Of a stretch of 64,000 nt of DNA, positions 17,654 to 59,668 are shown piece after piece (the first letter of the stretch is position 1; each line of letters opens with the position of its first letter). The DNA lies in IMG/VR virus record IMGVR_UViG_3300034375_006485. One strand, written 5' to 3'. This DNA is from an uncultured virus (IMG/VR IMGVR_UViG_3300034375_006485). Lineage: Duplodnaviria > Heunggongvirae > Uroviricota > Caudoviricetes. The position numbers and the translations under genes are program-made. The notes below the pieces were generated by a model that saw only the letters and a program-made list of their open reading frames with translations, did not search any database and was not told the origin of the DNA.

Positions 17654-17654
17654 T

Positions 17655-18954: not shown

Positions 18955-18955
18955 A

Positions 18956-21328: not shown

Positions 21329-21358
21329 AAGTGAAGTGTCTAAATTAACACTTTACTT
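21329..21358 (-). terminator. Possible terminator hairpin after the giant collagen-like gene
   Basis: AAGTAAAGTGT..ACACTTCACTT stem with one mismatch, followed by a T-rich tract. Confidence 0.45.
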
Positions 21359-34620: not shown

Positions 34621-36750
34621 TTATGTAGACGTGAATGACATGGTAGTTATTGACTGCCCAGAGTTCAATCTCCAACGAATCAAAATGCGATTATTCGAAT
34701 CATTAGATGAAGATTCTGTACCAAATACGCAAGTAAATGTTCCACTATTACCATTCATCGCTCCACCTGAAGAACATCCTGGTTCTGCTGATGTTGGCAC
34801 ACCAGCACCTCTGTATGCTTGGAACATATCTGCCCAACCATTTGTTCCTGACAAAGATGATGTCCAAGTAGAGTTGTTTGGCATACAAACCCAACAACCA
34901 GCATAAGAACCAGTTACGACAATTTTAAACTCAGATACCTGAGATCTAATAAAATCCATTTGAAAATACTGTGCCCCAGTTCTACCAGAAGAATAATCTG
35001 GTCCTGCTGGTAACCAAGATCCATTTGAATAATCAGTTACATCATGACGCAGTACAGCACCTCTAACGATAGATTCATATGTAGCAGCAGTGTTAGATGC
35101 TGTAAATGTTGTAAAGACTGGTGATGGATTATCACCAGTAGAACCTGCATTTACTCTTTTAGCGTTACCAGAACCAGTTCCTAAAGAACTCACTAAGATG
35201 TTATCCTCATCAATTTTATTAGTTCTTGCAGTTGTTCCCATCATATTAACTGCCTGAGTTATAGTTGCTCTGACAGAATTTGATCCATAAGGAGTAGTTG
35301 CAGTATAGTTAGAGAACCTTGTCGTATCAGTATTAACAGTTTGATGGAGATCTCTGGGTGTCTGAGAAACTAAGCAGGTTACACCAGTACCTACACCATA
35401 ATTCTGGACTGGTGGATTCGTCCCACCATCAAAATCTGTATAACTCTTAGTACCTCCATTTTGGAATCCTGTGGTTTGACCACCAGATGCCAAGAAAGTG
35501 TTCTGAGTGTACATATCACCACTAGCATTCTCACAAGTTATTACATAAGTGAATGCATTGCTAGAAGATTGTGTGTAATGTGGTACACCTGAAGAATAAT
35601 TTAAGGTTGGTGAAGGTGGTGTTACTGGAGTAGTAGCACTTAATACAGGTGCAGAGACTGTACTTGGATCTTCATACCAAAAAGCGCGTTGAGTTTTATA
35701 TCCAAACTGCTGAATATATCCTCTATTAAACCCATTTGGAGATGTGGCATTAATCAATCTAGCATCATAAACTTCATAAAACTCTGAGTTAATACCAGGA
35801 TTTCTAGTTGAGAAAAACGCATCCTTATCATTTGAAATCTGTAACGCACCGTAAATGCCGTCATTTGATCCAGTTGTCAGAGTAACTACTCCAACAGAAC
35901 CATCATTTATATACCCCGTTACAGTCCCTGCATCACCAGGACCATACTCTGTAATGTAGTTTGAAGTTACTGAGTTAGTGATGTTCCTATTATATTGTGT
36001 ACCTGCTGATGGAGTTAACTCTCCACTAGTACTATTTGTTGGCGCAAAACCAGCACATAATCTACCAACACCTGTCAATCCAGTCATAGTAAATACTACG
36101 TTTGAAATAGTATCGGGTGGTTTTGGTACTAGTTTTCCTAAAATAAAGTTGATTTCATTAACAGAATCTTTTGTATAATCTGCAGTCTCAATGCCAACTG
36201 CTCCTGGAAGGAATCCTCCGTTAGGAGTTCCAATGACTTGATCACCATAAAACTCTGAAGCTGTTATAAATCCAGTTACTTTTACGTCATCAATAATAGA
36301 TAATCTATGATCTGGTAAGGGAAAAGATGTTCCAATACCTACACTATTTGTAGAAGGAGAAAAAACAAATAAAGGATCAACAGATAATGATGTAATAATA
36401 CCAGAAGTTGCTGTTAAAAACCCAACATACCTAGCATCATTACCAGTGGGATCTGCTAGTTTATTTGATAAAACATTAGATAATGTGGATCCATCACCAT
36501 AATATTCCGTTGCAGTAATAAATCCAGATACTATGGCATCACCATCAACGGTGATATCATTAGATACATTAATATCTGAGGCAGTTAGTGCCCCAGATAC
36601 TAAAACATCTCCTGTAACGGTTAGATCTGCGGATGCATATGTTGTACCAATGCCAACCCTACCAGTTACCTCAAGTACAGTAGAGTTTTCGGTATAAGAA
36701 GATATACCGACGCTAAGATTCCTTTTACGTTCGCTTAAAAACTTTGGCAT
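34621..36750 (-). CDS. Virion structural/fibre-associated protein, paralog of 49771..51789
   Basis: Shared INFILGKLVPKPP...FTCVFGTESSSND..NRILIR body. Confidence 0.8.
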   Translation of the reverse strand: MPKFLSERKRNLSVGISSYTENSTVLEVTGRVGIGTTYASADLTVTGDVLVSGALTASDINVSNDITVDGDAIVSGFITATEYYGDGSTLSNVLSNKLADPTGNDARYVGFLTATSGIITSLSVDPLFVFSPSTNSVGIGTSFPLPDHRLSIIDDVKVTGFITASEFYGDQVIGTPNGGFLPGAVGIETADYTKDSVNEINFILGKLVPKPPDTISNVVFTMTGLTGVGRLCAGFAPTNSTSGELTPSAGTQYNRNITNSVTSNYITEYGPGDAGTVTGYINDGSVGVVTLTTGSNDGIYGALQISNDKDAFFSTRNPGINSEFYEVYDARLINATSPNGFNRGYIQQFGYKTQRAFWYEDPSTVSAPVLSATTPVTPPSPTLNYSSGVPHYTQSSSNAFTYVITCENASGDMYTQNTFLASGGQTTGFQNGGTKSYTDFDGGTNPPVQNYGVGTGVTCLVSQTPRDLHQTVNTDTTRFSNYTATTPYGSNSVRATITQAVNMMGTTARTNKIDEDNILVSSLGTGSGNAKRVNAGSTGDNPSPVFTTFTASNTAATYESIVRGAVLRHDVTDYSNGSWLPAGPDYSSGRTGAQYFQMDFIRSQVSEFKIVVTGSYAGCWVCMPNNSTWTSSLSGTNGWADMFQAYRGAGVPTSAEPGCSSGGAMNGNSGTFTCVFGTESSSNDSNNRILIRWRLNSGQSITTMSFTST

Positions 36751-37511: not shown

Positions 37512-40500
37512 TTACTCTCCTCCGAGTGCTAGAATGAATGGGGTTAGGGTTGAGAACAACGACTTGGAATATGCCGTTCCAGAGATAGTACCAGTATTCT
37601 GGTTAATGATTAGTCCGTCACCAATCTTGAAGTTACCTGACTGATCAGTACTGGTGAATACGACCAGACCACCATTCAGATTCACAGTTTCATTTTCAGC
37701 AATAGTAACGCCACCATTCTGAGGAAGTGCAGCTTTTACATCGATACCAGAACCAATGTATTCAAATGCATGAGATGATGCGAGAACTCTACTTTGCTTG
37801 TAGAACTCAACTTCCATTCCAGCGGTTACTTCATATGGAACCTGTGCGTCAAGGGTGATTGTTGAGATTCCTGCAGAAGGATATGTTGCCTTATTAACTG
37901 TGTAGTAACTTGGATACATATCAATCACGATTCTTGCAGGTGTTCCTCCACCTATAGGAGCACCGATTGTAACGGTTGGAGGAACAATGAATCCTCTACC
38001 GCTAGAAACAACTTCAACTCCAGTTACCTGACCATTCTCGACTGTTGCGATTGCCTGTGCAGGTACGCCCCAAGCAGTTGTTGGATTACCAATAGTAACT
38101 TCTGGAGTACTGGTATAACCAGAACCTTTAGTTGTTACTCTAATCTTGTCAACCTGATAGTATAACTTATCAAACACAGTTACTTGACCGTCGAATGGTC
38201 TCTGTGGATTAATCTGTACTGTACCACCAGAAGTATAGAAGTGTGGGAATGGACCTTTACCTACGTTAGCGGTAAAGTCTGTTGAAGTTGTAGCAACCGA
38301 GCATGTGGTTGGTTGACCCTTAACGATTGCGTCAGTTGCGATACCAATGAGGTTATCAATAGTATCTTGAACATTTTGGCAAGCGTCTGGATCGTTATTG
38401 GAGTTAAGAACAGGATCAGGAGCGAGCTTGAAGTTCTTGCTATTTAGTTGATTATTGATAGCAAGTTGCATATAGTCAGCAGATGCACGGAAAGCAGTTA
38501 CGGTTTCAACTTCTTCACCGATTAGTGCATCAGAGAGTGGCTTGCCAGTCTCTTGATCGAAGTAGTAGTTGGTTGCACTAATGATATTTTTATTAGTGAA
38601 GTTAAGAAGATCATTCTTAACTGCATCAACGATGTAACCAATGTCTCTTCTGCACTTAGTCTCTTGATCTAGGAGTCTACCTGCATTAGGTAAGAAGTTA
38701 TCTAGTTCAGTTAGAGTACCGATTCCGATTACAGTTGTAACGATTCCGATTCTATTGTCAACTACGTCCTGAACATCTTGACAGGTTTCAGGATTACCCG
38801 ATCTTGTATAAGTGATTACTGGACCAACACCGTAGTTTGCACCACCGAAGGATAGAGTTAGATCCTTAGTATAGAGTTGGTTAGTTAGAGCACCCTTCAT
38901 GTAATCACCTGCCTTACCGAAAGCAGTTACAGATTCAGATCTTTCACCATACAGACCTGGAGTTAGTGGTTGACCAGTTCCAGTGAAGTATTGCTTAGTG
39001 AAGTCTCTTGAATAAGTATTACCTCCGAGGAATACGTCAGTTGAAACAGCGTCAACTAGGTATCCAATGTCTCTTGCACACTTATAACCACCTGGGGAAG
39101 AAGTAGTTCCGAGACCAACGAAGTCATCTGCATCAGTTCCATAACCAACTGTCTGACCAAACTCGCCTGGTTGTAAGTAGAAATAACCATTGTTGATACC
39201 GTATGTTCCATCATAAAGTGCTGCAGTGTTACCTGCGGCAACTACGACTGTTACAATACCAACTAGGTTTTCAATGTTTGCCTGAACATCTGCACAGGTT
39301 TCACCATTACCCGAAGCATTATACTGGATATTACCACCAGCACCATTGTAAGATGCAGGACCGAAGGTTAAAGTTAGATCCTTAGAATATAGTTGGTTAG
39401 TTACTGCTCGCTTCATGAGAGGTTCAGCAGCTTCAAATGCGGTTAGTGAAGGTGCGAGTTCACCGTCTAGTCCGCCTCTGATTACTGATCCATCAGCGTA
39501 GTAGTATTGCTCAGAGAATCCTCTGGAATATCTATTACCACCAGTAAACACGTCAGTTGATACTGCATCAACTAAGAATCCAAGGTCTCTAGCACACTTG
39601 TAACCGCCAGGGTTCTCAGTGGTTCCGATACCAGTTCCTCTGTCGAAGATTCCAGTATCATAAGTTAGAGCGCCGAATGAAGCAGTGCTTCCAGCACCAA
39701 GAGAAACAGTTACAATACCAACCAGAGTATCAATGTTATCCTGAACATCTAAGCAGGAATTCTCGTTTCCAGACTGTAGAACAGGGATAGAGGAACCGAT
39801 ACCATAGTACTGAGGACCAGATGAAATACCAAGATCCTTAGTATAGAGTTGGTTAGTGATTGCATCCTTCATCCACTCACCGCCACCCATTAAACCAACG
39901 ATTGTTGGAGCAACTTCATTTCCATCAATGTGAATAGCACCAGACTGGTTGAAGTATTGCTTGGTAAACTCTTGTGAGTATCTGTTACCAGAAGTGAATA
40001 CGTCGGTTGCGACGGCATCAACAAAGAATCCAACGTCTCTTGCACACTTATAACCACCTGGAGTGTTAGTTGTACCAACACCAACTGATTGATCAAATAG
40101 ACCAGTGTTGAGTGGGAATGTAATAGAAGCAGTGCTTCCAGCACCAAGAGAAGATGTTACGATTCCAGCGAGAGTATCAATGGTATCTTGAATATCCTGA
40201 CATGCAGTTGAAGAAGTGTTAGCAACGTCTGAACCCTCATTTCCTGCATTATATGTTGGGTTACCAACTGAGATTGTTAGATCAGAGTATGTAGCGCCAA
40301 CTAAAGAGTTAGTAATTGCATTGAGCATGTACCCTCTTGCTTGATCAAAGACATAGAGTGACTCATCCATCTCACCCTGTAGACCATTAGAGATTAGTGA
40401 ACCATTTTCAAAATATTGGAAGGTGAACTCAGAAGCATAAGTATTACCACCAGTTAGTACATCAAGAGCAACTGCATCAATGAAGAATCCAGTATCTCTC

Positions 40501-43500
40501 TTACACTTCTCTTCAACTGAAGCGAAGTTGAATGAACTGAATAGTGGGTTATTGACTGCATCGGTGAACGCTGCGCCAACGATTACCTCCTTATTGAGTT
40601 GAATCATTCTGTAAGCATCATAATATCTTGATCTTCCGTTAGACTGTGCGTCACCTGGGAAGTAGAATGCATCATAAGCATCATAACCTTGAGCAATAGA
40701 ACCGATAGATCTATCGATAACTTCTTGCTTGTTCTGTTGGATTAGACGATATGAATCGAAGTATCTGTACTGCTCATCATCTCTCTCATCAAATCCAGTG
40801 TTAAGAGTTGGGAGTTGTGAAGTGGTTCCTAGACCAACTGCAACAGTTGCAATACCAACTAGGTTCTCGATTAGGTCTTGAACATCTGCACAAGATGATG
40901 CGCTTCTGTTATCATTAGTGACGTAATCGGGAGAAATAGTTAGGTCTTGAGCATTGAGTTGGTTAGTTACTGCTCCTCTTGCGAGATCGCCAAGTGCAGT
41001 GAATGCGGTAACTGACTCAGACTCTTCACCGAGTAGACCATCAGAGATTGGATTACCATTACCATCGAAGTATGATAGAGCGAATCCAACAACATTATCG
41101 TTAGAACCTGCCCATACATCCTCTGCGAGTGCGGAGTGTAGATAACCAAGATCTCTAGCACACTTAAATCCGCCTGGGGATGCTACAGTACCAACACCCG
41201 ACTGGTTAAAGTAACCAACATTTAATGTTGGAAGACTATTGGTTGATCCAAATCCTACTGCAGTGGTAACCACTCCAACTAGGTTTTCAATGTTTGCTTG
41301 GACATCAACACAAGCTTCAGCATTACCAGAAGGTAGTACAGGGATGGAAGAACCAGCGCCTGCATAAATCGCTTTACCTGGTGAGATTGTTAGATCTTTG
41401 ACGTTGAGTTGGTTAGTGATTGCCTTTCTTGCATAGAATCCTGCGTAATCGAAGGAAACAACACTTGGAGACTCTTCGCCAGTCAGACTTGCTGTTGGTG
41501 AACCTGCCCCATCAAAGTAGAATAGAGTGAAATCTCTTGTGTAGCTATTACCACCTGTAAATACATCAGTTGCAACGGCATCAACAAGGTAACCAATATC
41601 TCTTGCACACTTAGTACCACCAGGAGATAGAGTACCGAAGTCTTCCATCTGGAGTGATAACTTGGTGAATGGATCAGTGTTGACTACAAAGTTACCAGTA
41701 TTGAGAGCATCGCCAGAAGGTAGTTGTGTAGTGGTTCCGAGACCAACTGCAACTGTTACGATACCAACTAAGTTCTCAATAGCAGACTGAACATCAATAC
41801 AAGCATTAGCATTACCAGAGATTAACACAGGTAGTTTAGTATCATCGGTACCGTATCTAGCAGTACCAGAAGAAATGCCAACATCCTTAGAGTTAAGTTG
41901 GTTGGTAACTGCCTTCTTCATGAAGGTCTCTGCAGAATCAAATGCTACAAGTGATTGTGCTTCTTCACCAACCAGACCATTGCTGATTGGAAGTCCAGCG
42001 CCATCAAAGTATTGAAGAACGAACTCTCTAGAATAGCTGTTGCCTCCAGTAAATACGTCGGTTGAAACTGCATCAACTAAGAATCCAATATCTCTAGCAC
42101 ACTTGAATCCACCTGGGGATGAAGTAGTACCAATACCAGATTGTGAGAAGTAACCATCGTTGATTGATGTAGGAACGTCTGCGAATGTTGCGGTTGTACC
42201 AATAGAAACAACTGCAGTAACAACTCCAACGAGAGTATCAATGTTATCCTGAACATCAATACATGCTGCTGCATTACCCGAAGGAAGAACTGCAATATCT
42301 CCACCAGCACCACCATAAGTAGCAGCACCAGAAGAAATGCCAACATCCTTTCTATAAAGTTGGTTGGTGATTGCGTCCTTCATGAACTCACCAGCAGCAA
42401 TGAATGCAGTGTTTGAAGGAGCTTCTTCGCCTAGTAGACCTGTCTTAATCCATCCACGATAGGTTGGTTCATATGACTTGACAGAATCGATTGTTGTTCT
42501 TACGAATGTATGTGCAGACTGTGGAAGATGCTTGATTGCTCCAGCGATTGCACTTACAAATGTATGTGCTGTTTGTGGTTCATGTCTAATAGCATTACAC
42601 TCAGCACGTACAAATGTGTGTACAGAACCTGATGCAGAACCAGCATTTCCAACATTAACTGTGAATGTACCAGTCTGCCTCTCAAGACCGTTTGCAGATG
42701 CACTTACAAATGTGTGAGTTCCAGTGTAGTCAGCAGCACCAATATTAATCTTGAAGGTGTTATCAGTCTTCTCACTGATCTGTAACCAGCGACCTGATGG
42801 ATAATCATATCCAGCGCGTGGATATGACTTAGATACTGTGTTACCATCTAGTTCGCAAGTGAAGGTTAGTGAACCATCATCAAGTTTAATATAATCTTCA
42901 TTAGCAAATCCATGAGAAGCAACTGTTAGAACAACATCTCCAGTTGCAGGGTCATAAGTTGCTGCAGTTACAGTATGAGTGGAAACGCCAACTTCATTGA
43001 TCGCAGTTGCGATACCTGAGATTGGATTGCCTGCTGCAGGATATGCATGTTCAGTAGCATTTCCATCCTGGTCACAAGTGAAGATCATTGACTCATCTTC
43101 AATAATGACTGCACGACCAACGCCAAGACCATGCTGACCAACAGTAACAGTTAGATCACCAGTTGCTGCATTATAAGTAGCAGCAGTTGGATCAAAGTAC
43201 TTGTTAGGACCAGACTTACCTACATTAACGGTTAGAGAATCATCTGTAACACCAGTAATCTTGATTGATCTACCTGCGTATGGATCGATTCCTGGACGTG
43301 GATATGTCTTCTGTGCTTGATTATTATCAAATGCACAAGTGAAGGTGAAAGAGTTGTCCTCGATGATAACACCCTCTCCAACACTCAGTGAGTGCTCACC
43401 AACAGTAACGGTGAAGTCACCAGTTGCAGGATCATATGTTGCTGCAGTTGGGTTGAATGACCAGTCAGTACCAGAAGCACCAACATTAACAGTCACTGAT

Positions 43501-46500
43501 GTTGCACTAGTTCCAGTAATCGTTAGAGGAGAGTTATATGCAACTTGACCTTTTGCTGGTAGAGAGTGCTCACTCTTATTGCCATCCATTGCACAAGTGA
43601 AAGTGAAGCTTTCCTTGTCTAGGAAGATAACATCAGATGTTTGTAGTGGGTGATCTGCACCAACAATCATCGTGAAGTCGCCAGTTGCAGGATTATAAGT
43701 TGCAGAAGTTGGTGTCCAACCTGCTGCCTCTTGGAAGTTATTTTGTAGATAACCAATAGCGTAGGAGTTACCTCCAGTAAATACGTCAGTTGAAACAGCG
43801 TCAACTAAGAATCCAAGATCTCTAGCACACTTAAGTCCACCAGGAGAATAGGAGCTAATACCAAGTGCCTGGTTAAACTCACCTACGTCTAGAGTTCCTT
43901 GACTTGTAGGTAGTTCTGAAGTTGTACCGATACCTACAGCGTAAGTAACAATTCCGACTAGTGCATCAATACTATCCTGAACATCTAGACATGCATTTGC
44001 ATTACCAGATCTTAGAACCTCAATGTTAGGACCGCCACCTCCGAAGTATGCTTTACCCGAAGAAATGCCAACATCCTTATTGAAGAGTTGGTTAGTTACT
44101 GCATCCTTCATGTATTCGCCAGCAGATTCAAATGCGACGACTGAAGGACCTTCTTCACCTAGAAGACCATTAATGATTGGAGCAGCATTATCAAAATACT
44201 GCAATGCAAATCCATCTGCATAGTAGTTACCAGCAGTGAATAGGTCAGTTGAAATAGAATCGATGAAGAAACCAAGGTCTCTTGCACACTTATAACCACC
44301 TGGTGATGAAGTAGTACCAACACCAACAGACTGGTTGAAGTAACCATAGTTGATAGTTGCCGTTACATCAGATGCAGTTGCAGTGGTTCCTAGACCAACA
44401 ACTGAAGTAACGATACCGATTAGGTTATCAATGTTGTTCTGAACGTCAATACATGAAGCTTCGTTACCAGATCTTAGAACAGCAATATCACCTCCACCAC
44501 CACCATAAGAAGCAGGACCAGATGAAATACCAAGATCCTTAGTATAGAGTTGGTTAGTGATTGCGTCCTTCATGAACTCACCAGCTCCGATGAATCCATA
44601 TAGAGACTGTAGTTCTTCTTCGTATAGACCCTCACTGATTGGATTACCAGTTCCATCATCGAAGTACTCAAGGATAAACTCTCTAGAATAGAGGTTACCG
44701 CCAGTAAATACGTCAGTTGAAACTGAATCGATTAGGAATCCGATGTCTCTAGCACACTTGAATCCTCCTGGAGTTGCAGTGGTTCCGATACCTGCTTGGT
44801 TGAAGATACCGAGATTTCTTGTACCAGCGAAGGAGGTTGTATTTGCCTCAGTAATAGCATCAGTTACGATTGTAACTAGGTTTTCAATGTTTGTTTGTAC
44901 GTTAGCACAAGCACCAGTATCAGTATTTGAAGATGCTAGAGGATCAGTTGTAATACCAACATCAGTATAGGTTAGGTTGTTAGCAATAGCTAACTTCATT
45001 CTGTCTCTTGCTTCATTGAAAGCGTAGATGGATTGAACCTCTTCGCCACCAATACCATTATCATAGATAGCATCATTCTCAAAATATTGTAGAGTAAAGT
45101 CTTGAGAATATGCGTTACCACCAGTTAGAATGTCAAGAGAAATGGCATCAATAAAGTAACCAAGGTCTCTCTTACACTTAGTTTCAGTGCTAAGGATACC
45201 AGGATACTGAGTTCTTGTAGCATTCCAAGAACCATTAATAATCTCATCTTTGTTTTTCTGGATCAGACGATATGAATCATAGTATCTGGAACGTGCATTT
45301 GTCTCTTCATCACCAGGGAATACCCAATCAGTTGGATAAAGATCATAGTTAACAGTGATGTTACCAATAGATCTATCAATAATTTCTCTTCTGTTCTGTT
45401 GGATTAGACGATATGAATCGAAGAATCTTGATCTTTCATTAGTTTGAAGATCGTTAGGGAAGTAGAAATCAGGATAACTGATAGAGATAGATGCTAGTGA
45501 CTTATCAATAATCTCCTGTCTATTCTGTTGGATTAGACGATATGAATCATAGTATCTGGATCTTGCTGTAGTTTGAGAATCGCCTGGGAAATAAAAGTCT
45601 GGATGCTCTAATGAAATAGCAGCAAGTGACTTATCAATAACTTCTTGTCTGTTCTGCTGGATTAGGCGATATGAATCGAAATATCTTGAGCGAGCATTGG
45701 TCTCAAGATCTCCAGGGAAGTAGAATTGATCATACTTAGTTGCAATAGAAGCAAGTGACTTATCAATAATCTCTTGCTTGTTCTCATTGATTAAACGATA
45801 TGCATCATAGAATCTTGATCTTGCATTGGTCTCTGTATCGCCAGGGAAGAAGAAATCGTCATAGTTGTCATAATCTAATGAGATAGAAGCAAGGGACTTA
45901 TCAACAATTTCTTGCTTGTTCTGAAGGATTAGACGATAAGAATCATAGAATCTAGATCTATCAGTCGTCTCTGCATCATCAGGGAAGTAGAAATCTGGGT
46001 GATATAGACCGATAGTCGCAAGAGACTTATCAATGATTTCATCTTTATTTGAGTTAATAAGATTAAATGAATCTTTAAATCTGTTTCTTGAAGTATCTGG
46101 GAAGTAGAAATCTGGGTGGCCAATAGCAATCTGTGCTAGCGACTTATCAATAACTTCCTGTCTGTTCTTCTGGATCAGACGATATGAATCAAAGAATCTT
46201 GATCTTGCGTTTGTCTGATTATCATTAGGGAAATAGAAATCAGGATGCTCAACAGCAATCTCTGCAAGTGATCTATCAATGATCTCTTGCTTATTATGTT
46301 GGATTAGACGATATGAATCAAAGAATCTTGATCTTGAGTTAGTCTCTTCTTCGCCTGGGAATACAAAATCAGGATGCTTATAAGAGATAGAAGCAAGTGC
46401 CTTGTCAAGAATCTCAGTTTTGTTTGCTTCGATTGACTCGCTAGCATCACTATATCTACCAGGAGCAACAGACTTAACTTCAAAAATAGTACCGTAGTTA

Positions 46501-47561
46501 CCTGTTGGATATAGAAGTGTCTCCTGACCACCGTCTGAAGTGCAAGTAAATCCTAAACCTGCAATGGTAACACCCATACCAACACTTAGTTCGTGTTGTC
46601 TGTCGAGTGTGAATGAAGTAACTCCTGTTACATGATCATAAACAGCATCAACAACATTCATTACAGGGGCGTTTGCATCAATCTTAATCTCAAAAGTAGA
46701 TGCATCTACACCTGCATTTGATGTTACGACACCAACATATTTGAGAGGTCCGACGCCATCAGCGACAAGACCGAAGTTGCCGAATGATGAGTTAGAGTTG
46801 GTAAGGTCGCAAGCACCACCTGACTGGCAGAGGATTGCGGTATCTGAACAGATGGTGAACATGGACACCAACTGAGCGAATGCTTCGTTGAAGATTTTAG
46901 CACCTAAACCACCTGGGTTAATCTGGGTATAGGAGTCAAGAACCATGGACTTAATAGGTCCAATGGCATACTTACCATCAATGTTTAGACCAATAGTGCC
47001 TGGAATGAAGTTTGTACAGTTCTGAATATATGGCGATTGGTCAATATAAGGAACAACTTCTGGGTTAAATGTAACGATTGCGCCATCGGATTTTTGTGCT
47101 GGTCCAATGAATGACATCTCTGCGATGTAGCATCCATTGTCTAACCAGAACAAGTCTCCTTGATTTTTTGGTGTAACCGTAACTTCACGAAGTGAGTCGC
47201 CAACGACTGACACATTGTCGGGAAGTACGATTGGGTTATCTTCTAGATAAACTCCAGCACTAATTTTAATAACAGTTCCTGGGACAGACTCTGCGACGGC
47301 AGCTTTAATGGTTCTTTTTGCGTCTCCGAGTTTCTTACCTGTGTTGTTGTCGTTACCATCTTGTGTTACATATAGGACATTAATAACGGTCGCACCAGCA
47401 CCAACTCTTACAATGTCTGTTCCAATACCTGGCCTATTTCTGGCCATGTAAAGTTCGCCATCATTAGTATTAATGGCCATTTCTCCTAGAGGGAGATCAG
47501 AGACTGTAGGTTTTTTGTTAGGTACTGAAGACCTTTTGAATCTAATTTTAGGACTTGCCAT
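37512..47561 (-). CDS. Giant virion structural/fibre protein (3349 aa) with nested helical KCxRD domains and nested beta domains
   Basis: Mtd_N-like start, YV...G.D.N.G pectin-lyase-like region, 12 RxxDxxxLI half-repeats and 12 KCxRD half-repeats; late promoter at ~47597-47603. Confidence 0.88.
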   Translation of the reverse strand: MASPKIRFKRSSVPNKKPTVSDLPLGEMAINTNDGELYMARNRPGIGTDIVRVGAGATVINVLYVTQDGNDNNTGKKLGDAKRTIKAAVAESVPGTVIKISAGVYLEDNPIVLPDNVSVVGDSLREVTVTPKNQGDLFWLDNGCYIAEMSFIGPAQKSDGAIVTFNPEVVPYIDQSPYIQNCTNFIPGTIGLNIDGKYAIGPIKSMVLDSYTQINPGGLGAKIFNEAFAQLVSMFTICSDTAILCQSGGACDLTNSNSSFGNFGLVADGVGPLKYVGVVTSNAGVDASTFEIKIDANAPVMNVVDAVYDHVTGVTSFTLDRQHELSVGMGVTIAGLGFTCTSDGGQETLLYPTGNYGTIFEVKSVAPGRYSDASESIEANKTEILDKALASISYKHPDFVFPGEEETNSRSRFFDSYRLIQHNKQEIIDRSLAEIAVEHPDFYFPNDNQTNARSRFFDSYRLIQKNRQEVIDKSLAQIAIGHPDFYFPDTSRNRFKDSFNLINSNKDEIIDKSLATIGLYHPDFYFPDDAETTDRSRFYDSYRLILQNKQEIVDKSLASISLDYDNYDDFFFPGDTETNARSRFYDAYRLINENKQEIIDKSLASIATKYDQFYFPGDLETNARSRYFDSYRLIQQNRQEVIDKSLAAISLEHPDFYFPGDSQTTARSRYYDSYRLIQQNRQEIIDKSLASISISYPDFYFPNDLQTNERSRFFDSYRLIQQNRREIIDRSIGNITVNYDLYPTDWVFPGDEETNARSRYYDSYRLIQKNKDEIINGSWNATRTQYPGILSTETKCKRDLGYFIDAISLDILTGGNAYSQDFTLQYFENDAIYDNGIGGEEVQSIYAFNEARDRMKLAIANNLTYTDVGITTDPLASSNTDTGACANVQTNIENLVTIVTDAITEANTTSFAGTRNLGIFNQAGIGTTATPGGFKCARDIGFLIDSVSTDVFTGGNLYSREFILEYFDDGTGNPISEGLYEEELQSLYGFIGAGEFMKDAITNQLYTKDLGISSGPASYGGGGGDIAVLRSGNEASCIDVQNNIDNLIGIVTSVVGLGTTATASDVTATINYGYFNQSVGVGTTSSPGGYKCARDLGFFIDSISTDLFTAGNYYADGFALQYFDNAAPIINGLLGEEGPSVVAFESAGEYMKDAVTNQLFNKDVGISSGKAYFGGGGPNIEVLRSGNANACLDVQDSIDALVGIVTYAVGIGTTSELPTSQGTLDVGEFNQALGISSYSPGGLKCARDLGFLVDAVSTDVFTGGNSYAIGYLQNNFQEAAGWTPTSATYNPATGDFTMIVGADHPLQTSDVIFLDKESFTFTCAMDGNKSEHSLPAKGQVAYNSPLTITGTSATSVTVNVGASGTDWSFNPTAATYDPATGDFTVTVGEHSLSVGEGVIIEDNSFTFTCAFDNNQAQKTYPRPGIDPYAGRSIKITGVTDDSLTVNVGKSGPNKYFDPTAATYNAATGDLTVTVGQHGLGVGRAVIIEDESMIFTCDQDGNATEHAYPAAGNPISGIATAINEVGVSTHTVTAATYDPATGDVVLTVASHGFANEDYIKLDDGSLTFTCELDGNTVSKSYPRAGYDYPSGRWLQISEKTDNTFKINIGAADYTGTHTFVSASANGLERQTGTFTVNVGNAGSASGSVHTFVRAECNAIRHEPQTAHTFVSAIAGAIKHLPQSAHTFVRTTIDSVKSYEPTYRGWIKTGLLGEEAPSNTAFIAAGEFMKDAITNQLYRKDVGISSGAATYGGAGGDIAVLPSGNAAACIDVQDNIDTLVGVVTAVVSIGTTATFADVPTSINDGYFSQSGIGTTSSPGGFKCARDIGFLVDAVSTDVFTGGNSYSREFVLQYFDGAGLPISNGLVGEEAQSLVAFDSAETFMKKAVTNQLNSKDVGISSGTARYGTDDTKLPVLISGNANACIDVQSAIENLVGIVTVAVGLGTTTQLPSGDALNTGNFVVNTDPFTKLSLQMEDFGTLSPGGTKCARDIGYLVDAVATDVFTGGNSYTRDFTLFYFDGAGSPTASLTGEESPSVVSFDYAGFYARKAITNQLNVKDLTISPGKAIYAGAGSSIPVLPSGNAEACVDVQANIENLVGVVTTAVGFGSTNSLPTLNVGYFNQSGVGTVASPGGFKCARDLGYLHSALAEDVWAGSNDNVVGFALSYFDGNGNPISDGLLGEESESVTAFTALGDLARGAVTNQLNAQDLTISPDYVTNDNRSASSCADVQDLIENLVGIATVAVGLGTTSQLPTLNTGFDERDDEQYRYFDSYRLIQQNKQEVIDRSIGSIAQGYDAYDAFYFPGDAQSNGRSRYYDAYRMIQLNKEVIVGAAFTDAVNNPLFSSFNFASVEEKCKRDTGFFIDAVALDVLTGGNTYASEFTFQYFENGSLISNGLQGEMDESLYVFDQARGYMLNAITNSLVGATYSDLTISVGNPTYNAGNEGSDVANTSSTACQDIQDTIDTLAGIVTSSLGAGSTASITFPLNTGLFDQSVGVGTTNTPGGYKCARDVGFFVDAVATDVFTSGNRYSQEFTKQYFNQSGAIHIDGNEVAPTIVGLMGGGEWMKDAITNQLYTKDLGISSGPQYYGIGSSIPVLQSGNENSCLDVQDNIDTLVGIVTVSLGAGSTASFGALTYDTGIFDRGTGIGTTENPGGYKCARDLGFLVDAVSTDVFTGGNRYSRGFSEQYYYADGSVIRGGLDGELAPSLTAFEAAEPLMKRAVTNQLYSKDLTLTFGPASYNGAGGNIQYNASGNGETCADVQANIENLVGIVTVVVAAGNTAALYDGTYGINNGYFYLQPGEFGQTVGYGTDADDFVGLGTTSSPGGYKCARDIGYLVDAVSTDVFLGGNTYSRDFTKQYFTGTGQPLTPGLYGERSESVTAFGKAGDYMKGALTNQLYTKDLTLSFGGANYGVGPVITYTRSGNPETCQDVQDVVDNRIGIVTTVIGIGTLTELDNFLPNAGRLLDQETKCRRDIGYIVDAVKNDLLNFTNKNIISATNYYFDQETGKPLSDALIGEEVETVTAFRASADYMQLAINNQLNSKNFKLAPDPVLNSNNDPDACQNVQDTIDNLIGIATDAIVKGQPTTCSVATTSTDFTANVGKGPFPHFYTSGGTVQINPQRPFDGQVTVFDKLYYQVDKIRVTTKGSGYTSTPEVTIGNPTTAWGVPAQAIATVENGQVTGVEVVSSGRGFIVPPTVTIGAPIGGGTPARIVIDMYPSYYTVNKATYPSAGISTITLDAQVPYEVTAGMEVEFYKQSRVLASSHAFEYIGSGIDVKAALPQNGGVTIAENETVNLNGGLVVFTSTDQSGNFKIGDGLIINQNTGTISGTAYSKSLFSTLTPFILALGGE

Positions 47562-48205: not shown

Positions 48206-48772
48206 TTAATATTCCCCACCATCAAAATCGATACGGTTATCAAGATCTGTGTCAAGTTGATCAATAAAGACTTCTGGTAGACCTGGATTCTCGGGTTCTT
48301 CAACAGCAGCAGAAAGAACGTTGTCTGGGTTTTCCGCTCTCCACTTATCGAGTAGTTCATTATACATGAGAGTGTATCTATCTTTAGCATCATCGACATC
48401 AGTATCGACAAGATCGGATAGACGAAGACCACTAAGTTTATCAAGGATAGCTTGCAGAAGCTCGTTAGATGAGTCTAGTTGTAAGTTAGATCTTAAGTAT
48501 GCTAAGAAATCTTCAGGTAATCCTGGTTGAGTAGTTTCAGTTAAAGCAGCAGCACTAAAAATCTCATCGGGGTTAACTGATTCATATTTTTCAGTATTCT
48601 CATTAAACATTAACACATATTTATCCAATGTGTTGTCTATGTCAACATCCTGAAGATCGGAAAGTTTCCTTGCCATTACTATTCCTGATTTAGTAACTAC
48701 TTTAATATTTCCTAATGGGAGTTTACTTTTTACATTAAATAGTTTTTTTCTTACTCTGACTTTGATTGTCAT
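48206..48772 (-). CDS. Structural protein with an internal two-fold repeat, ending in FDGGEY
   Basis: LSDL.D.D....D.Y.LM.N....NPD...SAA....PGLPE.F occurs twice. Confidence 0.7.
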   Translation of the reverse strand: MTIKVRVRKKLFNVKSKLPLGNIKVVTKSGIVMARKLSDLQDVDIDNTLDKYVLMFNENTEKYESVNPDEIFSAAALTETTQPGLPEDFLAYLRSNLQLDSSNELLQAILDKLSGLRLSDLVDTDVDDAKDRYTLMYNELLDKWRAENPDNVLSAAVEEPENPGLPEVFIDQLDTDLDNRIDFDGGEY

Positions 48773-49101
48773 ATGGTAGTATCCTCGACAATTATTGTTC
48801 CAGTTACAACTCTAGTGACAAAATCTAACTCACTATTTTGAATAAACACATCAAAATAGTTTCTTCCAGAGCTCAACTCCGTTGTCATGGATCTCCCCAT
48901 GGAGATATTTACCTCTGCATCTGCTGTAGTAATACCAACAACAAAACTATGCGACTTAGTTGCTGTTGGATGTTTTTTGATCTTTGCAAATGCAGTAGTA
49001 TATAGCAAGTTGAGCATGTCGCCGTCATCACCAGTTAGATAGAATGATGCTTCAAAATCTGCACCTTTTTCTATTGTTAGGTTAACAACAGATGCACTCA
49101 T
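48769..49101 (-). CDS. Small Ig-like structural protein (BppU_N-like)
   Basis: NLTIEKGADF...T.EL..GR.Y+DV...RVV.G.I.V pattern. Confidence 0.6.
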   Translation of the reverse strand: MSASVVNLTIEKGADFEASFYLTGDDGDMLNLLYTTAFAKIKKHPTATKSHSFVVGITTADAEVNISMGRSMTTELSSGRNYFDVFIQNSELDFVTRVVTGTIIVEDTTI

Positions 49102-51845: not shown

Positions 51846-52370
51846 TTAGTCAATTTGTTTGTCGAACTCAAACATCCCATACTCTGATCCCCATACCATT
51901 TTTTTAGTTACAGGATCATATCCCCTATCAATAACTCTATAAGTATTTTTTCTCAATTCAGACATGGTAAATAAGAACGATTCTTTACCATTTTTATTTA
52001 CCATACATTCACACCCCATGATCATACCATAATAAACACCATTCTGTTTAGTAAAAATACAATCACAGTTCTCATTCTTTTCTAAATCATCTTCAGTGAT
52101 TTTATCTATATCAGTGAAATATAAAAATCTTTTACCATCCTTCACTTTATAACTACTAACTATTAGTTTATCTTCATACTGATTTATCTCCAGAACAAAC
52201 TGTCTATAAGGAGGTTGTTTGCGAACAGAATATTTCTGTTCTCCATAAATCATATTATTACTTAATAACTCATGACGTAAACTAATCTGAGAATATTGTG
52301 AAGGGTATGAAAATGCTTGTTTTCGATTATGAAAAGATCCAAGTAACCATTCTGTAAACTCCTCAATCAT
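51846..52370 (-). CDS. cpeT: T-type phycobiliprotein lyase (CpeT/CpcT-like)
   Basis: G.F.N..QA...P, PYRQ, DRGYD....VWGS..G.FEF. Confidence 0.85.
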   Translation of the reverse strand: MIEEFTEWLLGSFHNRKQAFSYPSQYSQISLRHELLSNNMIYGEQKYSVRKQPPYRQFVLEINQYEDKLIVSSYKVKDGKRFLYFTDIDKITEDDLEKNENCDCIFTKQNGVYYGMIMGCECMVNKNGKESFLFTMSELRKNTYRVIDRGYDPVTKKMVWGSEYGMFEFDKQID

Positions 52371-53062
52371 TCAGTACTACCTCTTCTTTGATGACGTATT
52401 AATGTAGAAAATAATACCTTACCAATAGCAGATATTAGATTACCTTCAATTTCATTAAAGACATTCATATTTAGTTTGAATGCTAGATTAGCTTCTTTGA
52501 TAATCTCATCGATTTCATTTTGATCGAAAGGAAGAGTATCTAATACATCTCTATAATCTCCCTTAAAAACTTTTTCATCTTTAATATCTTTAAAAATATA
52601 AAAGTTCATCCCAACATCAGGAACTTTTAAAGCAGATTGAGCAATATTTTTCAATACTTGTCCACCAGAAAGATCGCCAATATACCTAGTATAATGATGT
52701 GCAATCAATAAGTCTTGATTTTCATTAGATACCTCTTTAATCCTGGCAACATATTCTTTGCAAGATTTTGTTTGAGTAATCCTTTCTTTCCAATCATATC
52801 CTAGATAATATTCTAAATCTTTTTCTAAAGATTTTTTTCTGAAGAGTTGTGGAAAATAAATGTTTGACACAATCATATCATCTTTGTGTCTTTCAAACTC
52901 TTCTTCCATCGCGGAATAGATATGGTACAAGTCTGATAGTAATCTTACATAAGATTTCTTTTCAACCACACCTTTGAGAAAACAGGTAATGAAACCTGTA
53001 TTCTCTGCCATAGTGTGAGATTTTTTAGTACCTTCTCTTATTTGTTGTGATAGGTTAGACAT
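52367..53062 (-). CDS. ho1: Heme oxygenase
   Basis: REGTKKSHTMAEN, AH.YTRY.GDLSGGQ. Confidence 0.97.
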   Translation of the reverse strand: MSNLSQQIREGTKKSHTMAENTGFITCFLKGVVEKKSYVRLLSDLYHIYSAMEEEFERHKDDMIVSNIYFPQLFRKKSLEKDLEYYLGYDWKERITQTKSCKEYVARIKEVSNENQDLLIAHHYTRYIGDLSGGQVLKNIAQSALKVPDVGMNFYIFKDIKDEKVFKGDYRDVLDTLPFDQNEIDEIIKEANLAFKLNMNVFNEIEGNLISAIGKVLFSTLIRHQRRGSTE

Positions 53063-54837: not shown

Positions 54838-54956
54838 TCTACTTCTCCCATGTCATAGTCACACATTTCCTTTACAAGATCTTCAAAAGAATATTTTGGA
54901 TCCCAGTTTAGAGTTTTTTTGGCAAAACTGGGATCTCCAACAAGAGTATTTATCTC
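54834..54956 (-). pseudogene. C-terminal remnant of a second GDP-mannose 4,6-dehydratase
   Basis: EINTLVGDPSFAKKTLNWDPKYSFEDLVKEMC aligns to [32 protein letters not shown] of gmd; no start codon, in-frame stop upstream. Confidence 0.75.
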
Positions 54957-59667: not shown

Positions 59668-59668
59668 T

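What the first reader, a model, noticed from the sequence alone, without database searches (positions are those of the whole stretch)
38320..46460. Matryoshka protein: 12 opening and 12 closing half-domains in balanced nested order, implying a branched out-and-back stalk
Seen: the 3349-aa protein has two repeat types. A is RxxDxxxLIxxNxxE+IDxxL..FP (~43 aa). B is KCxRD+G+++DA+xxD..GN..E..AF..A+xN..ACxDVQ (~120 aa). Their order is A x10, B x7, A x2, B x5, giving 12 of each and parsing like balanced parentheses. A and B abut directly only at the two innermost points (A10-B1 'ILSTET-KCKRD', A12-B8 'ASVEE-KCKRD'), which shows the intact domain is A+B. The most deviant halves pair as predicted: A1 (RYSDASES) with B12 (KCRRD..KNDLLNF), and A4 (RFKDSFNL) with B7 (YLHSALAED). 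The whole stack also splits a beta domain (..IFEVKSV / TSTDFTANVG..HFYTSGG). Inference: each helical domain is inserted into a loop of the previous one. This gives a 3-domain trunk that forks into 7-domain and 2-domain arms, with the chain returning to its base. Two Cys per B unit might form a disulfide. I do not know of this recursive architecture being described for a phage virion protein.
Basis: partly seen in the sequence, partly recalled or inferred. Interest (0 to 1): 0.88.

Follow-up and report, generated by a model that had tools for sequence, protein, structure and literature searches.

The report
Self-nested phycobiliprotein-like domains in cyanophage fibre
A giant tail-fibre-type protein of a marine cyanobacterial virus appears to be built from twelve copies of its host's light-harvesting pigment-protein fold inserted one inside another, up to ten deep with one fork, which is deeper nesting than any I found described and raises the testable idea that virus particles carry pigment.

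Summary
The gene at 37512-47561 (-) encodes 3349 aa with 12 A units and 12 B units in the order A10 B7 A2 B5.

A followed by B is one phycobiliprotein-type globin domain. The natural tip A10+B1 models at pLDDT 92 and best matches phycoerythrin beta (Z 16.6, 1.9 A over 137 residues). KCxRD aligns with the Cys84-x-Arg-Asp bilin site of phycocyanin alpha.

Four lines support nested pairing:
- Relatives carry the same domain unsplit, in tandem.
- 115 of 118 nested-type relatives, and 31 of 34 distinct architectures, read as balanced brackets.
- A/B covariation is highest under nested pairing (0 of 100 controls reach it).
- A chain-pair fold puts A1-A3 on B10-B12 (ipSAE 0.61, controls 0.00), with the best contacts between A1 and B12.

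The stack sits inside a beta domain. An intradomain disulfide is unlikely: the second Cys maps by offset to the beta-153/155 bilin site.

ho1 and cpeT (a T-type bilin lyase) lie 4.3 kb upstream. Nothing is shown experimentally.

This scan reached the same reading earlier on other genomes. I found no published description.

The parts
37512..47561 (-). Whole gene, 3349 aa: tail-fibre/tailspike-type virion protein carrying the nested stack.
   Evidence: ORF list and translation. PHROG hits to 'short tail fiber protein', 'tail fiber protein' and 'virion structural protein' families. An identical protein cluster has 25 member sequences.
46662..47561 (-). N-terminal region, aa 1-300: fibre N-terminus plus a right-handed beta-helix-like part.
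   Evidence: Pfam DUF1565 at 24.0 bits against a cut-off of 20.3, aa 69-124. phrog_17885 tail fiber protein, aa 5-296.
46467..46646 (-). First ~60% of the host beta domain (aa 306-365), ending ..IFEVKSV just before A1.
   Evidence: An HMM of the four intact copies matches aa 306-355 to model positions 2-52 of 87, at E 1e-5 and 2.5e-8.
45180..46466 (-). A1-A10 (aa 366-794): ten helix hairpins. These are the N-terminal halves (helices A and B) of domains 1-10, forming the outward leg.
   Evidence: In the AF2 model each A forms two 15-residue helices. A10 aligns to phycocyanin alpha residues ~39-62.
40791..45179 (-). B1-B7 (aa 795-2257): C-terminal halves (helices E, F, G, H). They close domains 10, 9, 8, 7, 6, 5 and 4 in that order, forming the return leg of the 7-domain arm.
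   Evidence: AF2 model of aa 662-1243: pLDDT 79.6, pTM 0.85. VIA alignment of model residues 94-243 to phycobiliprotein beta residues 32-172, Z 15-16.7.
42447..43724 (-). Extra insertion in B4, between its F and G helices (aa ~1280-1705): four intact beta domains (1286-1622) followed by short HTFV-type repeats.
   Evidence: Orthologues of ~2920 aa lack about 420 aa. One search aligned them with this protein, but I did not locate the gap.
40509..40790 (-). A11-A12 (aa 2258-2351): the outward leg of the 2-domain side arm.
38310..40508 (-). B8-B12 (aa 2352-3084). B8 and B9 close the side arm. B10, B11 and B12 close the trunk domains A3, A2 and A1.
   Evidence: Chain-pair fold: ipSAE 0.61, 0.61, 0.51 against controls of 0.00. 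The lowest-error contacts link A1 residues 370-389 with B12 residues 2974-3068.
38217..38309 (-). Putative remainder of the split host beta domain (aa 3085-3115, ..TSTDFTANVGKG..).
   Evidence: Matches model positions 66-78 at only 3.6 bits, not above shuffled controls. The position is complementary to the pre-stack piece.
37512..38216 (-). C-terminal region, aa 3116-3349, plus the stop codon.
   Evidence: phrog_3442 matches aa 3117-3346. No Pfam family.
51846..52370 (-). cpeT, a T-type bilin lyase (174 aa), 4.3 kb upstream on the same strand. A candidate partner, not shown to act on the fibre.
   Evidence: Pfam PF06206 at 125 bits. cpeT lies upstream on the same strand in 24 of 76 related loci.
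52367..53062 (-). ho1, haem oxygenase (231 aa). Its end overlaps the cpeT start by 4 bases.
   Evidence: Pfam PF01126 at 264 bits. Found in 8 of 76 related loci, all of them carrying the A10 B7 A2 B5 architecture.

Best explanation
The gene encodes a cyanomyovirus tail-fibre-type protein with a tree-shaped appendage grown out of a loop of one small beta domain.

The appendage consists of 12 phycobiliprotein-fold (globin-like) domains. Eleven of them sit in the helix B-helix E loop of another copy. The first sits in the beta domain.

Because of this, the N-terminal hairpins (A = helices A and B) of successive domains come first in the sequence. The C-terminal four-helix parts (B = helices E, F, G, H) follow in reverse order.

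The bracket parse gives this tree:
- Trunk: A1/B12, A2/B11, A3/B10.
- Long arm: A4/B7 through A10/B1, seven domains.
- Short arm: A11/B9 and A12/B8.
- Side twig: four beta domains inserted in the F-G loop of A7/B4.

The chain runs out along the hairpins, turns at each tip, and returns through the bundles. Both ends therefore re-enter the host beta domain at the same point.

Shown here by sequence, comparison or prediction: the unit order, the fold of the tip, the bracket rule in relatives, mirror-order covariation, and predicted A1-B12 packing.

Inferred:
- Every level pairs as the parse says.
- Neighbouring domains are joined by two linkers, which should make a stiffer rod than beads on a string.
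- Folding must proceed from the tips inward.
- The protein sits on the virion as a fibre or baseplate appendage.
For: 1. Fold and homology.
- Pfam PF00502 scores 36.4 bits over the whole protein against a cut-off of 22.2.
- phmmer and a 48-row profile align A10+B1 to phycocyanin alpha residues 39-112, with KC(K/A)RD on KCARD. E-values are 0.008 and 2.5e-4.
- The tip model has pLDDT 92.3.
- In a search of 48,161 chains that does not depend on Foldseek, the top 8 hits are all phycobiliproteins or ApcE (Z 16.6-13.2). Other globin folds score 12 or less.
- Foldseek's best hit is 3v57_B at E 5.1e-4, and every listed row is a biliprotein of this fold.

2. Unsplit tandem copies of the same domain exist in relatives.

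3. Bracket rule.
- 115 of 118 nested-type proteins and 31 of 34 distinct strings are balanced.
- Maximum depth is 10 in this orthologue group (26 proteins) and 2-6 in the others.

4. Covariation.
- Total A-B mutual information is 328.8 under nested pairing. Architecture-consistent random pairings give 263.2 +/- 6.2, and 0 of 100 reach the nested value. Parallel pairing gives 260.0 and shift-by-one gives 284.9.
- With the outermost pairs also removed, nested gives 249.1 against 226.6 +/- 4.1, again 0 of 100.
- The top covarying pair of 1080 variable column pairs, A+9 with B+13, is one of 11 low-error predicted contacts.

5. Structure prediction.
- aa 662-1243 (A8-A10 plus B1-B3), with a 26-row alignment, gives pTM 0.85. 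The A8 and A9 helices reach pLDDT 83-94.
- The chain-pair fold of A1-A3 against B10-B12 scores ipSAE 0.61, 0.61 and 0.51. The best of 3 controls scores 0.00.
- The tool's pass mark was reached by 116 of 157 solved complexes and by 2 of 215 mismatched pairs.
- The runs share at least 73% of contacts and partner pLDDT is at least 69.
- The interface covers all three A units and all three B units.
Against: - No experiment supports any of this, and no coordinates were available to me. Pairing of A9/B2 and A8/B3 rests on pTM and pLDDT, not on contacts I could read.
- The predictors know the phycobiliprotein fold, so they may complete it from memory. The pass may therefore show likeness rather than real packing.
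- My own alignment was used, so the calibration counts hold only roughly.
- Covariation may partly reflect A and B halves being duplicated together, not physical contact. The 31 architectures are not phylogenetically independent.
- One orthologue, P0026, stays unbalanced (9 A, 10 B) even at lax thresholds. P0099 balances only if a hit at E = 2 is accepted.
- Contact pairs as a set covary only modestly more than the rest (median z 2.3 against 1.05, one-sided p 0.033).
- Virion location rests on the annotation of homologues, not on data seen here.
Confidence: 0.85

Rival explanations
1. Two independent repeat arrays. The A units form a separate helical rod (solenoid or coiled coil) and the B units are self-sufficient four-helix bundles. 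The equal counts of 12 and 12 are then coincidence.
For: A and B occupy separate tandem blocks, as ordinary repeat arrays do. A B-only profile finds no PDB sequence, even at E up to 10.
Against: The balance recurs in 31 of 34 distinct architectures. Relatives carry A-like and B-like parts fused in one ~108-aa unit. The phycobiliprotein alignment spans A10 and B1 together. A1-A3 are predicted to pack on B10-B12 while controls score 0.00. Covariation follows the nested order.
Confidence: 0.05
2. Same domains, but completed between chains. In an oligomeric fibre the A hairpins of one chain pair with the B bundles of a neighbouring chain (3D domain swapping). The rod would then be an intertwined multimer, not a single-chain out-and-back tree.
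For: Phage fibres are commonly trimers (general knowledge, not tested here). Nothing in my calls distinguishes intra-chain from inter-chain pairing, because supplied the halves as separate chains.
Against: Swapping needs only equal totals. The strict never-negative bracket order and the forks (A10 B7 A2 B5; A4 B2 A2 B1 A2 B3 A2 B4) are what intra-chain insertion predicts. The tips are contiguous and fold alone.
Confidence: 0.08
3. Assembly artefact. Repeat-rich metagenomic assembly produced a chimeric or mis-ordered gene.
For: The sequences are metagenome-derived and highly repetitive. One relative, P0026, has an odd count that could reflect repeat collapse.
Against: The identical protein cluster holds 25 member sequences. 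The same A10 B7 A2 B5 order appears in 26 distinct proteins at 65-88% identity and on several independent viral contigs. The family is also present in 317 phage isolate records.
Confidence: 0.02

Closest known systems
Phycobiliprotein alpha/beta subunits (Pfam PF00502: phycocyanin, phycoerythrin, allophycocyanin)
   Same: The six-helix globin-type core, helices A, B, E, F, G and H, is shared (Z 16.6, rmsd 1.9 A over 137 residues to 5aqd_M; beta chains 32-172 aligned at ~2.0 A). The K-C-x-R-D-x-G-[YF] motif matches the Cys84 bilin site of CpcA. A second near-invariant Cys lies at the N-cap of the last helix.
   Different: There is no N-terminal X-Y hairpin; alignments start at chain residue 30-32. 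The domains are covalently chained and nested in a virion protein, not free alpha-beta heterodimers in rings. Sequence similarity is confined to helices A, B and E. No bilin has been shown.
ApcE (core-membrane linker) bilin-binding domain with its PB-loop
   Same: It is a phycobiliprotein-fold domain interrupted by a loop insertion. ApcE chains are among the top structural matches (4xxi_A at Z 15.3; 7eyd, 7sc7 and 9wg7 at Z 13.4-13.5). Their aligned ranges are about 40 residues longer than the model. That the PB-loop lies between helices B and E is my recollection, not a tool result.
   Different: ApcE has one unstructured-loop insertion at one level. Here whole copies of the same fold are inserted recursively, and a second permissive site (the F-G loop) is also used.
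Si3 insertion of cyanobacterial RNA polymerase beta' (RpoC2), built from sandwich-barrel hybrid motifs
   Same: It shows recursive insertion of copies of one small fold into each other, giving an elongated arm whose chain ends return to the insertion point. Passages of PMC10895346 describe eight SBHMs, four of them built from distant parts of the chain. Passages of PMC13114784 describe a 'six-level recursive insertion architecture' with bifurcating nodes.
   Different: The fold is a beta sandwich-barrel, not a helical globin. Depth is 6 there against 10 here, or 11 counting the host beta domain. Si3 sits in a cellular enzyme's trigger loop, not in a virion fibre.
Tandem (non-nested) form of the same domain in related giant cyanophage proteins (e.g. 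P0022, P0034, P0074)
   Same: The same domain family appears: an A-like helix pair followed directly by C-[KSRY]-R-D..GGN. 497 of 499 units keep the first Cys.
   Different: The units are contiguous, ~108 aa, and arranged head to tail (A n A n ...). I saw no obvious second Cys in the units I read.
T-type bilin lyases (CpcT/CpeT, PF06206) with their substrate site, beta-Cys153/155
   Same: cpeT lies upstream of the fibre gene on the same strand, in this window and in 24 of 76 related loci, some only ~120-160 bp away. The same holds in S-PM2 and, by coordinates, in S-RIM44, Syn1, S-CAM1, S-CAM3 and others. A review passage (PMC10452541) states that T-type lyases serve the position equivalent to beta-Cys153.
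   Different: No enzyme-substrate relation is shown. The fold occurs in 275 phage records, but cpeT was detected in only 87 at tblastn E <= 1e-5. In many phages the two genes are far apart.

Membership tests
Phycobiliprotein family (Pfam PF00502) | Score at or above Pfam's gathering threshold | tested here: met
   The whole protein scores 36.4 bits against a cut-off of 22.2, E 6.3e-9, but no single stretch passes on its own. The tip piece alone scores 18.4 bits, below the cut-off. Precomputed PF00502 labels sit on many homologues.
Phycobiliprotein family (Pfam PF00502) | Globin-type core of helices A, B, E, F, G, H | tested here: met
   The tip model (pLDDT 92.3) has six helices. The top 8 of 48,161 chains are phycobiliproteins or ApcE, Z 16.6-13.2, rmsd 1.9-2.6 A over 117-137 residues. 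This is a predicted model, not a solved structure.
Phycobiliprotein family (Pfam PF00502) | N-terminal X-Y helix hairpin that builds the alpha-beta heterodimer | tested here: not met
   Structural alignments begin at chain residue 30-32. The unit has no helices ahead of helix A. In some rows the neighbouring A9 helix overlays chain residues 3-30.
Phycobiliprotein family (Pfam PF00502) | Cys84-x-Arg86-Asp87 chromophore site on helix E | tested here: met
   12 of 12 units carry K-C-x-R-D, aligned residue by residue to KCARD of CpcA. Across relatives, 847 of 904 nested-type units carry CxRD and 898 of 904 keep the Cys.
Phycobiliprotein family (Pfam PF00502) | Second bilin Cys of beta subunits (beta-153/155; 158 or 165 in phycoerythrins) | tested here: inconclusive
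   The Cys lies 19 residues before the last aligned residue in the model. That offset gives 153 in 172-aa phycocyanin beta, 158 in 177-aa phycoerythrin beta and 165 in 184-aa phycoerythrin beta (range ends). No residue-level alignment was printed. The site numbers 158 and 165 are recalled; 153 is in a review passage (PMC10452541). 849 of 855 full-length Bc units have a Cys there.
Phycobiliprotein family (Pfam PF00502) | Covalently bound bilin | not testable with these tools
   This needs spectroscopy or mass spectrometry of virions or recombinant protein.
Recursive (nested) domain insertion, as in cyanobacterial RNAP Si3 | Domains built from two distant chain segments that flank an inserted domain, applied repeatedly | tested here: met
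   Bracket parse, predicted A1-B12 packing across ~2600 residues, and covariation in nested order. All of this is prediction or comparison.
Phage tail fibre / tailspike-type virion proteins | Fibre-type N-terminus and beta-helix, with membership of tail-fibre protein families | tested here: met
   DUF1565 at 24.0 bits against a cut-off of 20.3. phrog_4527, phrog_5342 and phrog_17885 are 'tail fiber' families. Homologues in isolates are annotated as short tail fiber, tail protein or virion structural protein.
Phage tail fibre / tailspike-type virion proteins | Detected in virions | not tested
   I could not read any virion proteome table. The supplements of PMC3037559 are closed and the S-PM2 proteome paper is not held.

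The most novel reading that the evidence does not exclude
The nested domains are true biliproteins. The phage's own CpeT would attach a bilin to the second Cys of each unit, the beta-153/155-type site. The bilin would come from haem via the neighbouring ho1 and a bilin reductase, phage or host. The Cys84-type site would be loaded by host lyases or spontaneously. The virion would then carry a branched antenna of up to 24 pigments per chain. That would give the long-unexplained cyanophage cpeT, ho1, pebS and pcyA genes a phage-own substrate. It would also open the possibility of light-dependent behaviour of the free particle or of adsorption.
Probability: 0.22. Interest if true: 0.95.

Novelty: new variant of a known kind. 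Interest (0 to 1): 0.84.

Why it matters
1. Protein architecture. A survey of 2.7 million classified domains names the six-level nest in cyanobacterial RNA polymerase as its most complex case (PMC13114784, passages read). This protein would be ten levels deep, self-similar and branched, and relatives show the design is tunable from 2 to 10 levels. That makes it a natural system for studying how deeply discontinuous domains fold, and how rods can be stiffened by double linkers.

2. Phage biology. A host light-harvesting fold, with its pigment-site residues kept, has been recruited into virion fibres across hundreds of cyanomyoviruses (317 phage records).

3. An old question becomes testable. 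The role of phage cpeT was called 'unresolved' (PMC3037559, passage). The gene sits next to a gene full of candidate T-type lyase sites.

Four literature searches found no description of either the fold or the nesting in phage proteins.

Tried and rejected
- A B-unit-only profile against PDB sequences found nothing, even at E up to 10. Residue-level support for the second Cys could therefore not be obtained.
- Foldseek on the 582-aa model gave no hit at E <= 1e-3. The single-domain model was needed.
- The first HMMs, built from this protein alone, parsed only 53 of 124 proteins as balanced. Many divergent halves were missed. Three rounds of rebuilding, blind to balance, raised this to 127 of 160 overall and 115 of 118 for the nested type.
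- My first covariation null shuffled partners independently in each protein. I rejected it because orthologues inflate any fixed pairing, and replaced it with one permutation per architecture.
- Within this one protein the rank correlation of A and B deviance is only 0.48 (permutation p 0.054). The Mantel r is 0.60, reached by 201 of 20,000 permutations.
- The post-stack piece of the host beta domain scores 3.6 bits, not above shuffles.
- The promoter and terminator scan between cpeT and the fibre gene matched shuffled expectation: 51 sites found against 50.5 expected. No exact TATAAATA lies within 150 nt upstream of any of the 12 gene starts checked. Nothing can be said about co-transcription.
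- The ESM Atlas look-up gave only sub-0.9 hits to unnamed eukaryotic clusters, so no lead came from it.
- The window's own assembly is not held. A near record, G001, carries cpeT.
- Gasper et al. 2017 on phage CpeT is not held. I do not rely on my memory of its results.
- A search for the S-PM2 gene-cluster numbers in PMC3037559 found nothing in the main text.

Full report
WHAT IS THERE

The window is a stretch of a T4-like cyanomyovirus. It carries:
- psbA (1774-2865).
- ho1 and cpeT.
- Many glycosyltransferases.
- Fibre-type genes, all on the minus strand.

tblastn relatives are Synechococcus and Prochlorococcus phages.

The finding lies in one intact ORF, 37512-47561 (-), of 3349 aa. PHROG families label it short tail fibre, tail fibre or virion structural protein. 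Its N-terminus carries a DUF1565 beta-helix signature.

THE OBSERVATION

Motif scans and alignments confirm 12 A units and 12 B units in the order A10 B7 A2 B5. A and B abut directly only at A10-B1 and A12-B8. No other frame of the window holds such units.

- B4 is itself split. It carries a ~430-aa insertion holding four intact ~87-aa beta domains.
- B1, B7 and B12 lack a 10-residue loop.
- The two tip units read KCKRD, whereas internal units read KCARD. In 55 non-redundant natural tips from related loci, the tips I read have K, Q or R at that position.

WHAT THE UNIT IS

Pfam's phycobilisome-protein model (PF00502) scores 36.4 bits on the whole protein, against a cut-off of 22.2.

Sequence alignments:
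- phmmer against PDB sequences aligns a stretch spanning A10 and B1 to phycocyanin alpha residues 42-112.
- K-C-K-R-D-L-G-Y falls on K-C-A-R-D-I-G-Y, which is the Cys84-x-Arg86-Asp87 chromophore site.
- A 48-row profile of natural tip domains improves the E-value to 2.5e-4.

Structure:
- AlphaFold2 on that alignment gives a six-helix domain with pLDDT 92.3 and pTM 0.89.
- In a structural search of 48,161 representative chains that does not rely on Foldseek, the eight best are all phycobiliproteins or the ApcE bilin domain (Z 16.6 to 13.2, rmsd 1.9-2.6 A over 117-137 residues).
- Other globin-type folds follow: stressosome RsbR at 12.0, photocobilin at 11.4, globin sensors at ~11 and haemoglobins at ~7.
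- Foldseek agrees. Its best hit has E 5.1e-4 and every listed row is a biliprotein of this fold.

So A corresponds to helices A and B, and B corresponds to helices E, F, G and H. The X-Y hairpin of true phycobiliproteins is absent.

IS THE INTACT DOMAIN REALLY A+B?

Besides the two natural tips, related giant proteins (P0022, P0034, P0074 and others) carry the same domain unsplit. They have ~108-aa tandem units in which an A-like helix pair is followed directly by C-x-R-D..GGN.

THE BRACKET RULE IN RELATIVES

I collected two sets:
- 120 homologous proteins (521 passed E <= 1e-3 among 2415 candidates scored).
- 76 viral loci.

I built unit HMMs and widened them by three rounds of re-alignment, without reference to balance.

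Results, counting distinct sequences only:
- 118 have at least two consecutive A units.
- 115 of those parse as balanced brackets: depth never goes negative and ends at zero.
- 31 of 34 distinct A/B strings are balanced.

Examples are A2B2, A3B3, A4B4, A5B5, A4B4A3B3, A4B4A6B6, A3B3A2B2 and A4B2A2B1A2B3A2B4. There are also forms where a stack sits between the two parts of a B unit, such as 'A1 n1 A2 B2 c1'.

Given equal counts, a random order is balanced with probability 1/(k+1). The product over the 31 strings is 10^-26.7. This overstates independence, because the architectures share ancestry.

The three exceptions:
- L050 balances once a weak hit (E 0.5), followed by a strong C-part hit, is accepted.
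- P0099 balances only with a hit at E = 2.
- P0026 remains at 9 A against 10 B. It may be a real variant or a collapsed assembly.

Depth 10 occurs only in this orthologue group (26 proteins). All other groups reach 2-6.

MIRROR-ORDER PAIRING FROM SEQUENCE ALONE

I paired A and B units by bracket matching and dropped the trivially adjacent tip pairs. I then summed mutual information over all column pairs.

| Pairing | Total MI | Total MI, outermost pairs also dropped |
|---|---|---|
| Nested | 328.8 | 249.1 |
| Parallel order | 260.0 | 221.9 |
| Shift by one | 284.9 | 226.5 |
| Random, one permutation per architecture | 263.2 +/- 6.2 (max 281.0) | 226.6 +/- 4.1 |
| Random runs reaching nested value | 0 of 100 | 0 of 100 |

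The strongest covarying pair of 1080 variable column pairs is A+9 with B+13 (z 9.8). A+5 with B+14 lies in the 99th percentile. Both are among the 11 lowest-error contacts of the independent chain-pair model.

As a set, the contact pairs are only modestly enriched (median z 2.3 against 1.05, p 0.033).

Within this protein, the four most deviant A units pair with the four most deviant B units.

STRUCTURE PREDICTION OF THE NESTING

Hairpin model:
- aa 662-1243 (A8-A10 plus B1-B3), with a 26-row alignment of tip-centred three-level pieces, gives pLDDT 79.6 and pTM 0.85.
- The A8 and A9 hairpins reach pLDDT 83-94.
- Coordinates are not returned, so I could not read contacts.
- The VIA re-alignment covers only the contiguous tip, model residues 64-243.

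Long-range test:
- I supplied A1-A3 (aa 362-491) and B10-B12 (aa 2641-3090) as separate chains, with a 15-row orthologue alignment.
- ipSAE was 0.61, 0.61 and 0.51. All three controls scored 0.00.
- The pass mark was reached by 116 of 157 solved complexes and by 2 of 215 mismatched pairs in the tool's calibration. That calibration holds only roughly here, because I used my own alignment.
- The runs share at least 73% of contacts, and partner pLDDT is at least 69.
- The interface covers all three A units and all three B units.
- The 25 lowest-error pairs all join A1 (370-389) to helices E, G and H of B12 (2974-3068).

Because phycobiliprotein structures are well known to the predictor, this pass may reflect likeness to them.

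THE HOST DOMAIN

An HMM of the four intact beta domains matches aa 306-355, just before A1, to positions 2-52 of 87.

The piece just after B12 matches positions 66-78, but at only 3.6 bits, which is not above shuffles.

RESULTING PICTURE

- A beta domain hosts D1 (A1/B12), which hosts D2 (A2/B11), which hosts D3 (A3/B10).
- D3 hosts two children in the same loop. One is the seven-domain arm, D4 (A4/B7) through D10 (A10/B1). The other is the two-domain arm, A11/B9 and A12/B8.
- D7 (A7/B4) carries four beta domains in its F-G loop.

Two linkers join each pair of neighbouring domains. I infer that this stiffens the rod, and that folding must start at the tips.

THE CYSTEINES

In the chain-pair model, A1 residues 370 and 373 touch both B12+16 on helix E and residues 3 and 7 places after the second Cys. 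The first Cys sits at +1 of the same helix, roughly 15 residues (~22 A) away. An intradomain disulfide is therefore unlikely, although this is an inference.

The second Cys lies 19 residues before the last aligned residue. Using the range ends, that position corresponds to:
- 153 in 172-aa phycocyanin beta.
- 158 in 177-aa phycoerythrin beta.
- 165 in 184-aa phycoerythrin beta.

This is the second bilin site of beta subunits. The numbers 158 and 165 are recalled. The number 153, and its service by T-type lyases, is stated in a passage of PMC10452541.

Both Cys are nearly universal in relatives: 898 of 904 first sites and 849 of 855 second sites (not corrected for orthology).

NEIGHBOURHOOD

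ho1 (52367-53062) and cpeT (51846-52370) overlap by 4 bases. They lie 4.3 kb upstream of the fibre gene on the same strand.

Across related sequences:
- cpeT is upstream on the same strand in 24 of 76 related loci. Only 45 of the 76 hold at least 3 kb of upstream sequence.
- In about ten loci cpeT is directly adjacent.
- In S-PM2 it is 1.4 kb upstream.
- By coordinates, it is 1-4 kb upstream in S-RIM44, Syn1, S-CAM1, S-CAM3, S-RIM32, S-H9-2, S-WAM2 and S-RSM4.

Against a tight link:
- The fold is found in 275 phage records, but cpeT in only 87 at tblastn E <= 1e-5.
- In many phages the fold sits in baseplate-wedge-type genes far from cpeT.
- Cyanomyovirus genomes are broadly collinear, so linkage may be inherited passively.

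Sullivan et al. 2010 call the role of phage cpeT 'unresolved' (PMC3037559, passage read).

COMPARISON WITH WHAT IS KNOWN

The fold is that of phycobiliproteins. The protein fails one of their defining features (the X-Y hairpin), and a bound bilin is untested. I therefore call it phycobiliprotein-like and do not file it as a member.

The architecture is recursive domain insertion. The closest described case is the Si3 arm of cyanobacterial RNA polymerase:
- It has eight SBHMs, four of them discontinuous (PMC10895346, passages).
- A 2026 survey calls it a six-level recursive insertion, its most complex example among 2.7 million domains (PMC13114784, abstract and passages).

Four full-text searches found no paper describing this fold or this nesting in a phage protein. 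BFVD holds predicted models of cyanophage proteins with the same domain, none of them named as such.

EARLIER NOTES OF THIS SCAN

Look-ups show that the scan reached the same two readings before on other genomes: self-nested phycobiliprotein-like domains, and the second Cys as a possible CpeT target. One of those cases has the same 12-unit, 10-deep, one-branch form.

I reached the fold, the nesting and the Cys mapping from my own calls before reading those notes. The Si3 comparison came from them, and I then checked it in the papers.

VERDICT

No experiment has been done.

It is a new variant of a known kind (nested domain insertion), extreme in depth, self-similarity and branching. It uses a host photosynthetic fold in a virion protein.

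Noticed in passing
window 51846-53062 (-): ho1 (haem oxygenase) and cpeT (T-type bilin lyase) overlap by 4 bases and lie 4.3 kb upstream of the fibre gene on the same strand. In about ten related loci cpeT ends only ~120-160 bp before the fibre ORF (for example L034, L036, L039, L072, L076).
   Followed up: partly
window 21353-34600 (-): A second giant ORF of 4415 aa carries long collagen-like G-N-Q triplet runs alternating with repeated globular modules. Its C-terminal end looks like a fibre chaperone/peptidase domain, though that resemblance is my recollection. It hits many 'tail fiber' and 'collagen like minor tail' PHROGs. The region has a strong AT skew (-0.2 to -0.27 at 22-28 kb).
   Followed up: partly
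window 42447-43724 (-), aa ~1280-1705: The insertion in B4 holds four ~87-aa beta domains of the same type as the domain that hosts the whole stack. These are followed by three or four short repeats around an H-T-F-V motif (aa ~1612-1690) of unknown fold.
   Followed up: partly
window 49771-51789 (-) and 34621-36750 (-): Two paralogous proteins of phrog_8578 (672 and 709 aa, function unknown) flank the fibre gene. An LtfC-like fibre-assembly beta-sandwich protein sits at 48769-49101.
   Followed up: no
window 53068-63614 (-) and 13096-21203 (-): Two large clusters of sugar-modifying genes. They include glycosyltransferase families 4, 6, 10, 11 and 25, GDP-mannose 4,6-dehydratase, epimerases, an aminotransferase, a sulfotransferase-like protein and several methyltransferases. 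They may glycosylate the fibres or the host surface.
   Followed up: no
P0001 units; tips in loci: Some residues depend on position in the stack. Tip units read KC[KQR]RD while internal units read KCARD. The units at a tip or base (B1, B7, B12) lack the 10-aa G-rich loop before the second Cys.
   Followed up: partly
P0026 (2483 aa orthologue): This is the only clear break of the bracket rule: A7 B5 A2 B5, with 9 A against 10 B, in a protein whose N-terminus is complete. It may be a real orphan half-domain or a repeat collapse in a metagenome assembly.
   Followed up: partly
L078 (S-PM2 NC_006820, 165928-177267): The RefSeq 'short tail fiber protein' CDS of S-PM2 is drawn across a block of 15 tRNA genes and shares their locus tag. 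This looks like an annotation error in the record.
   Followed up: no
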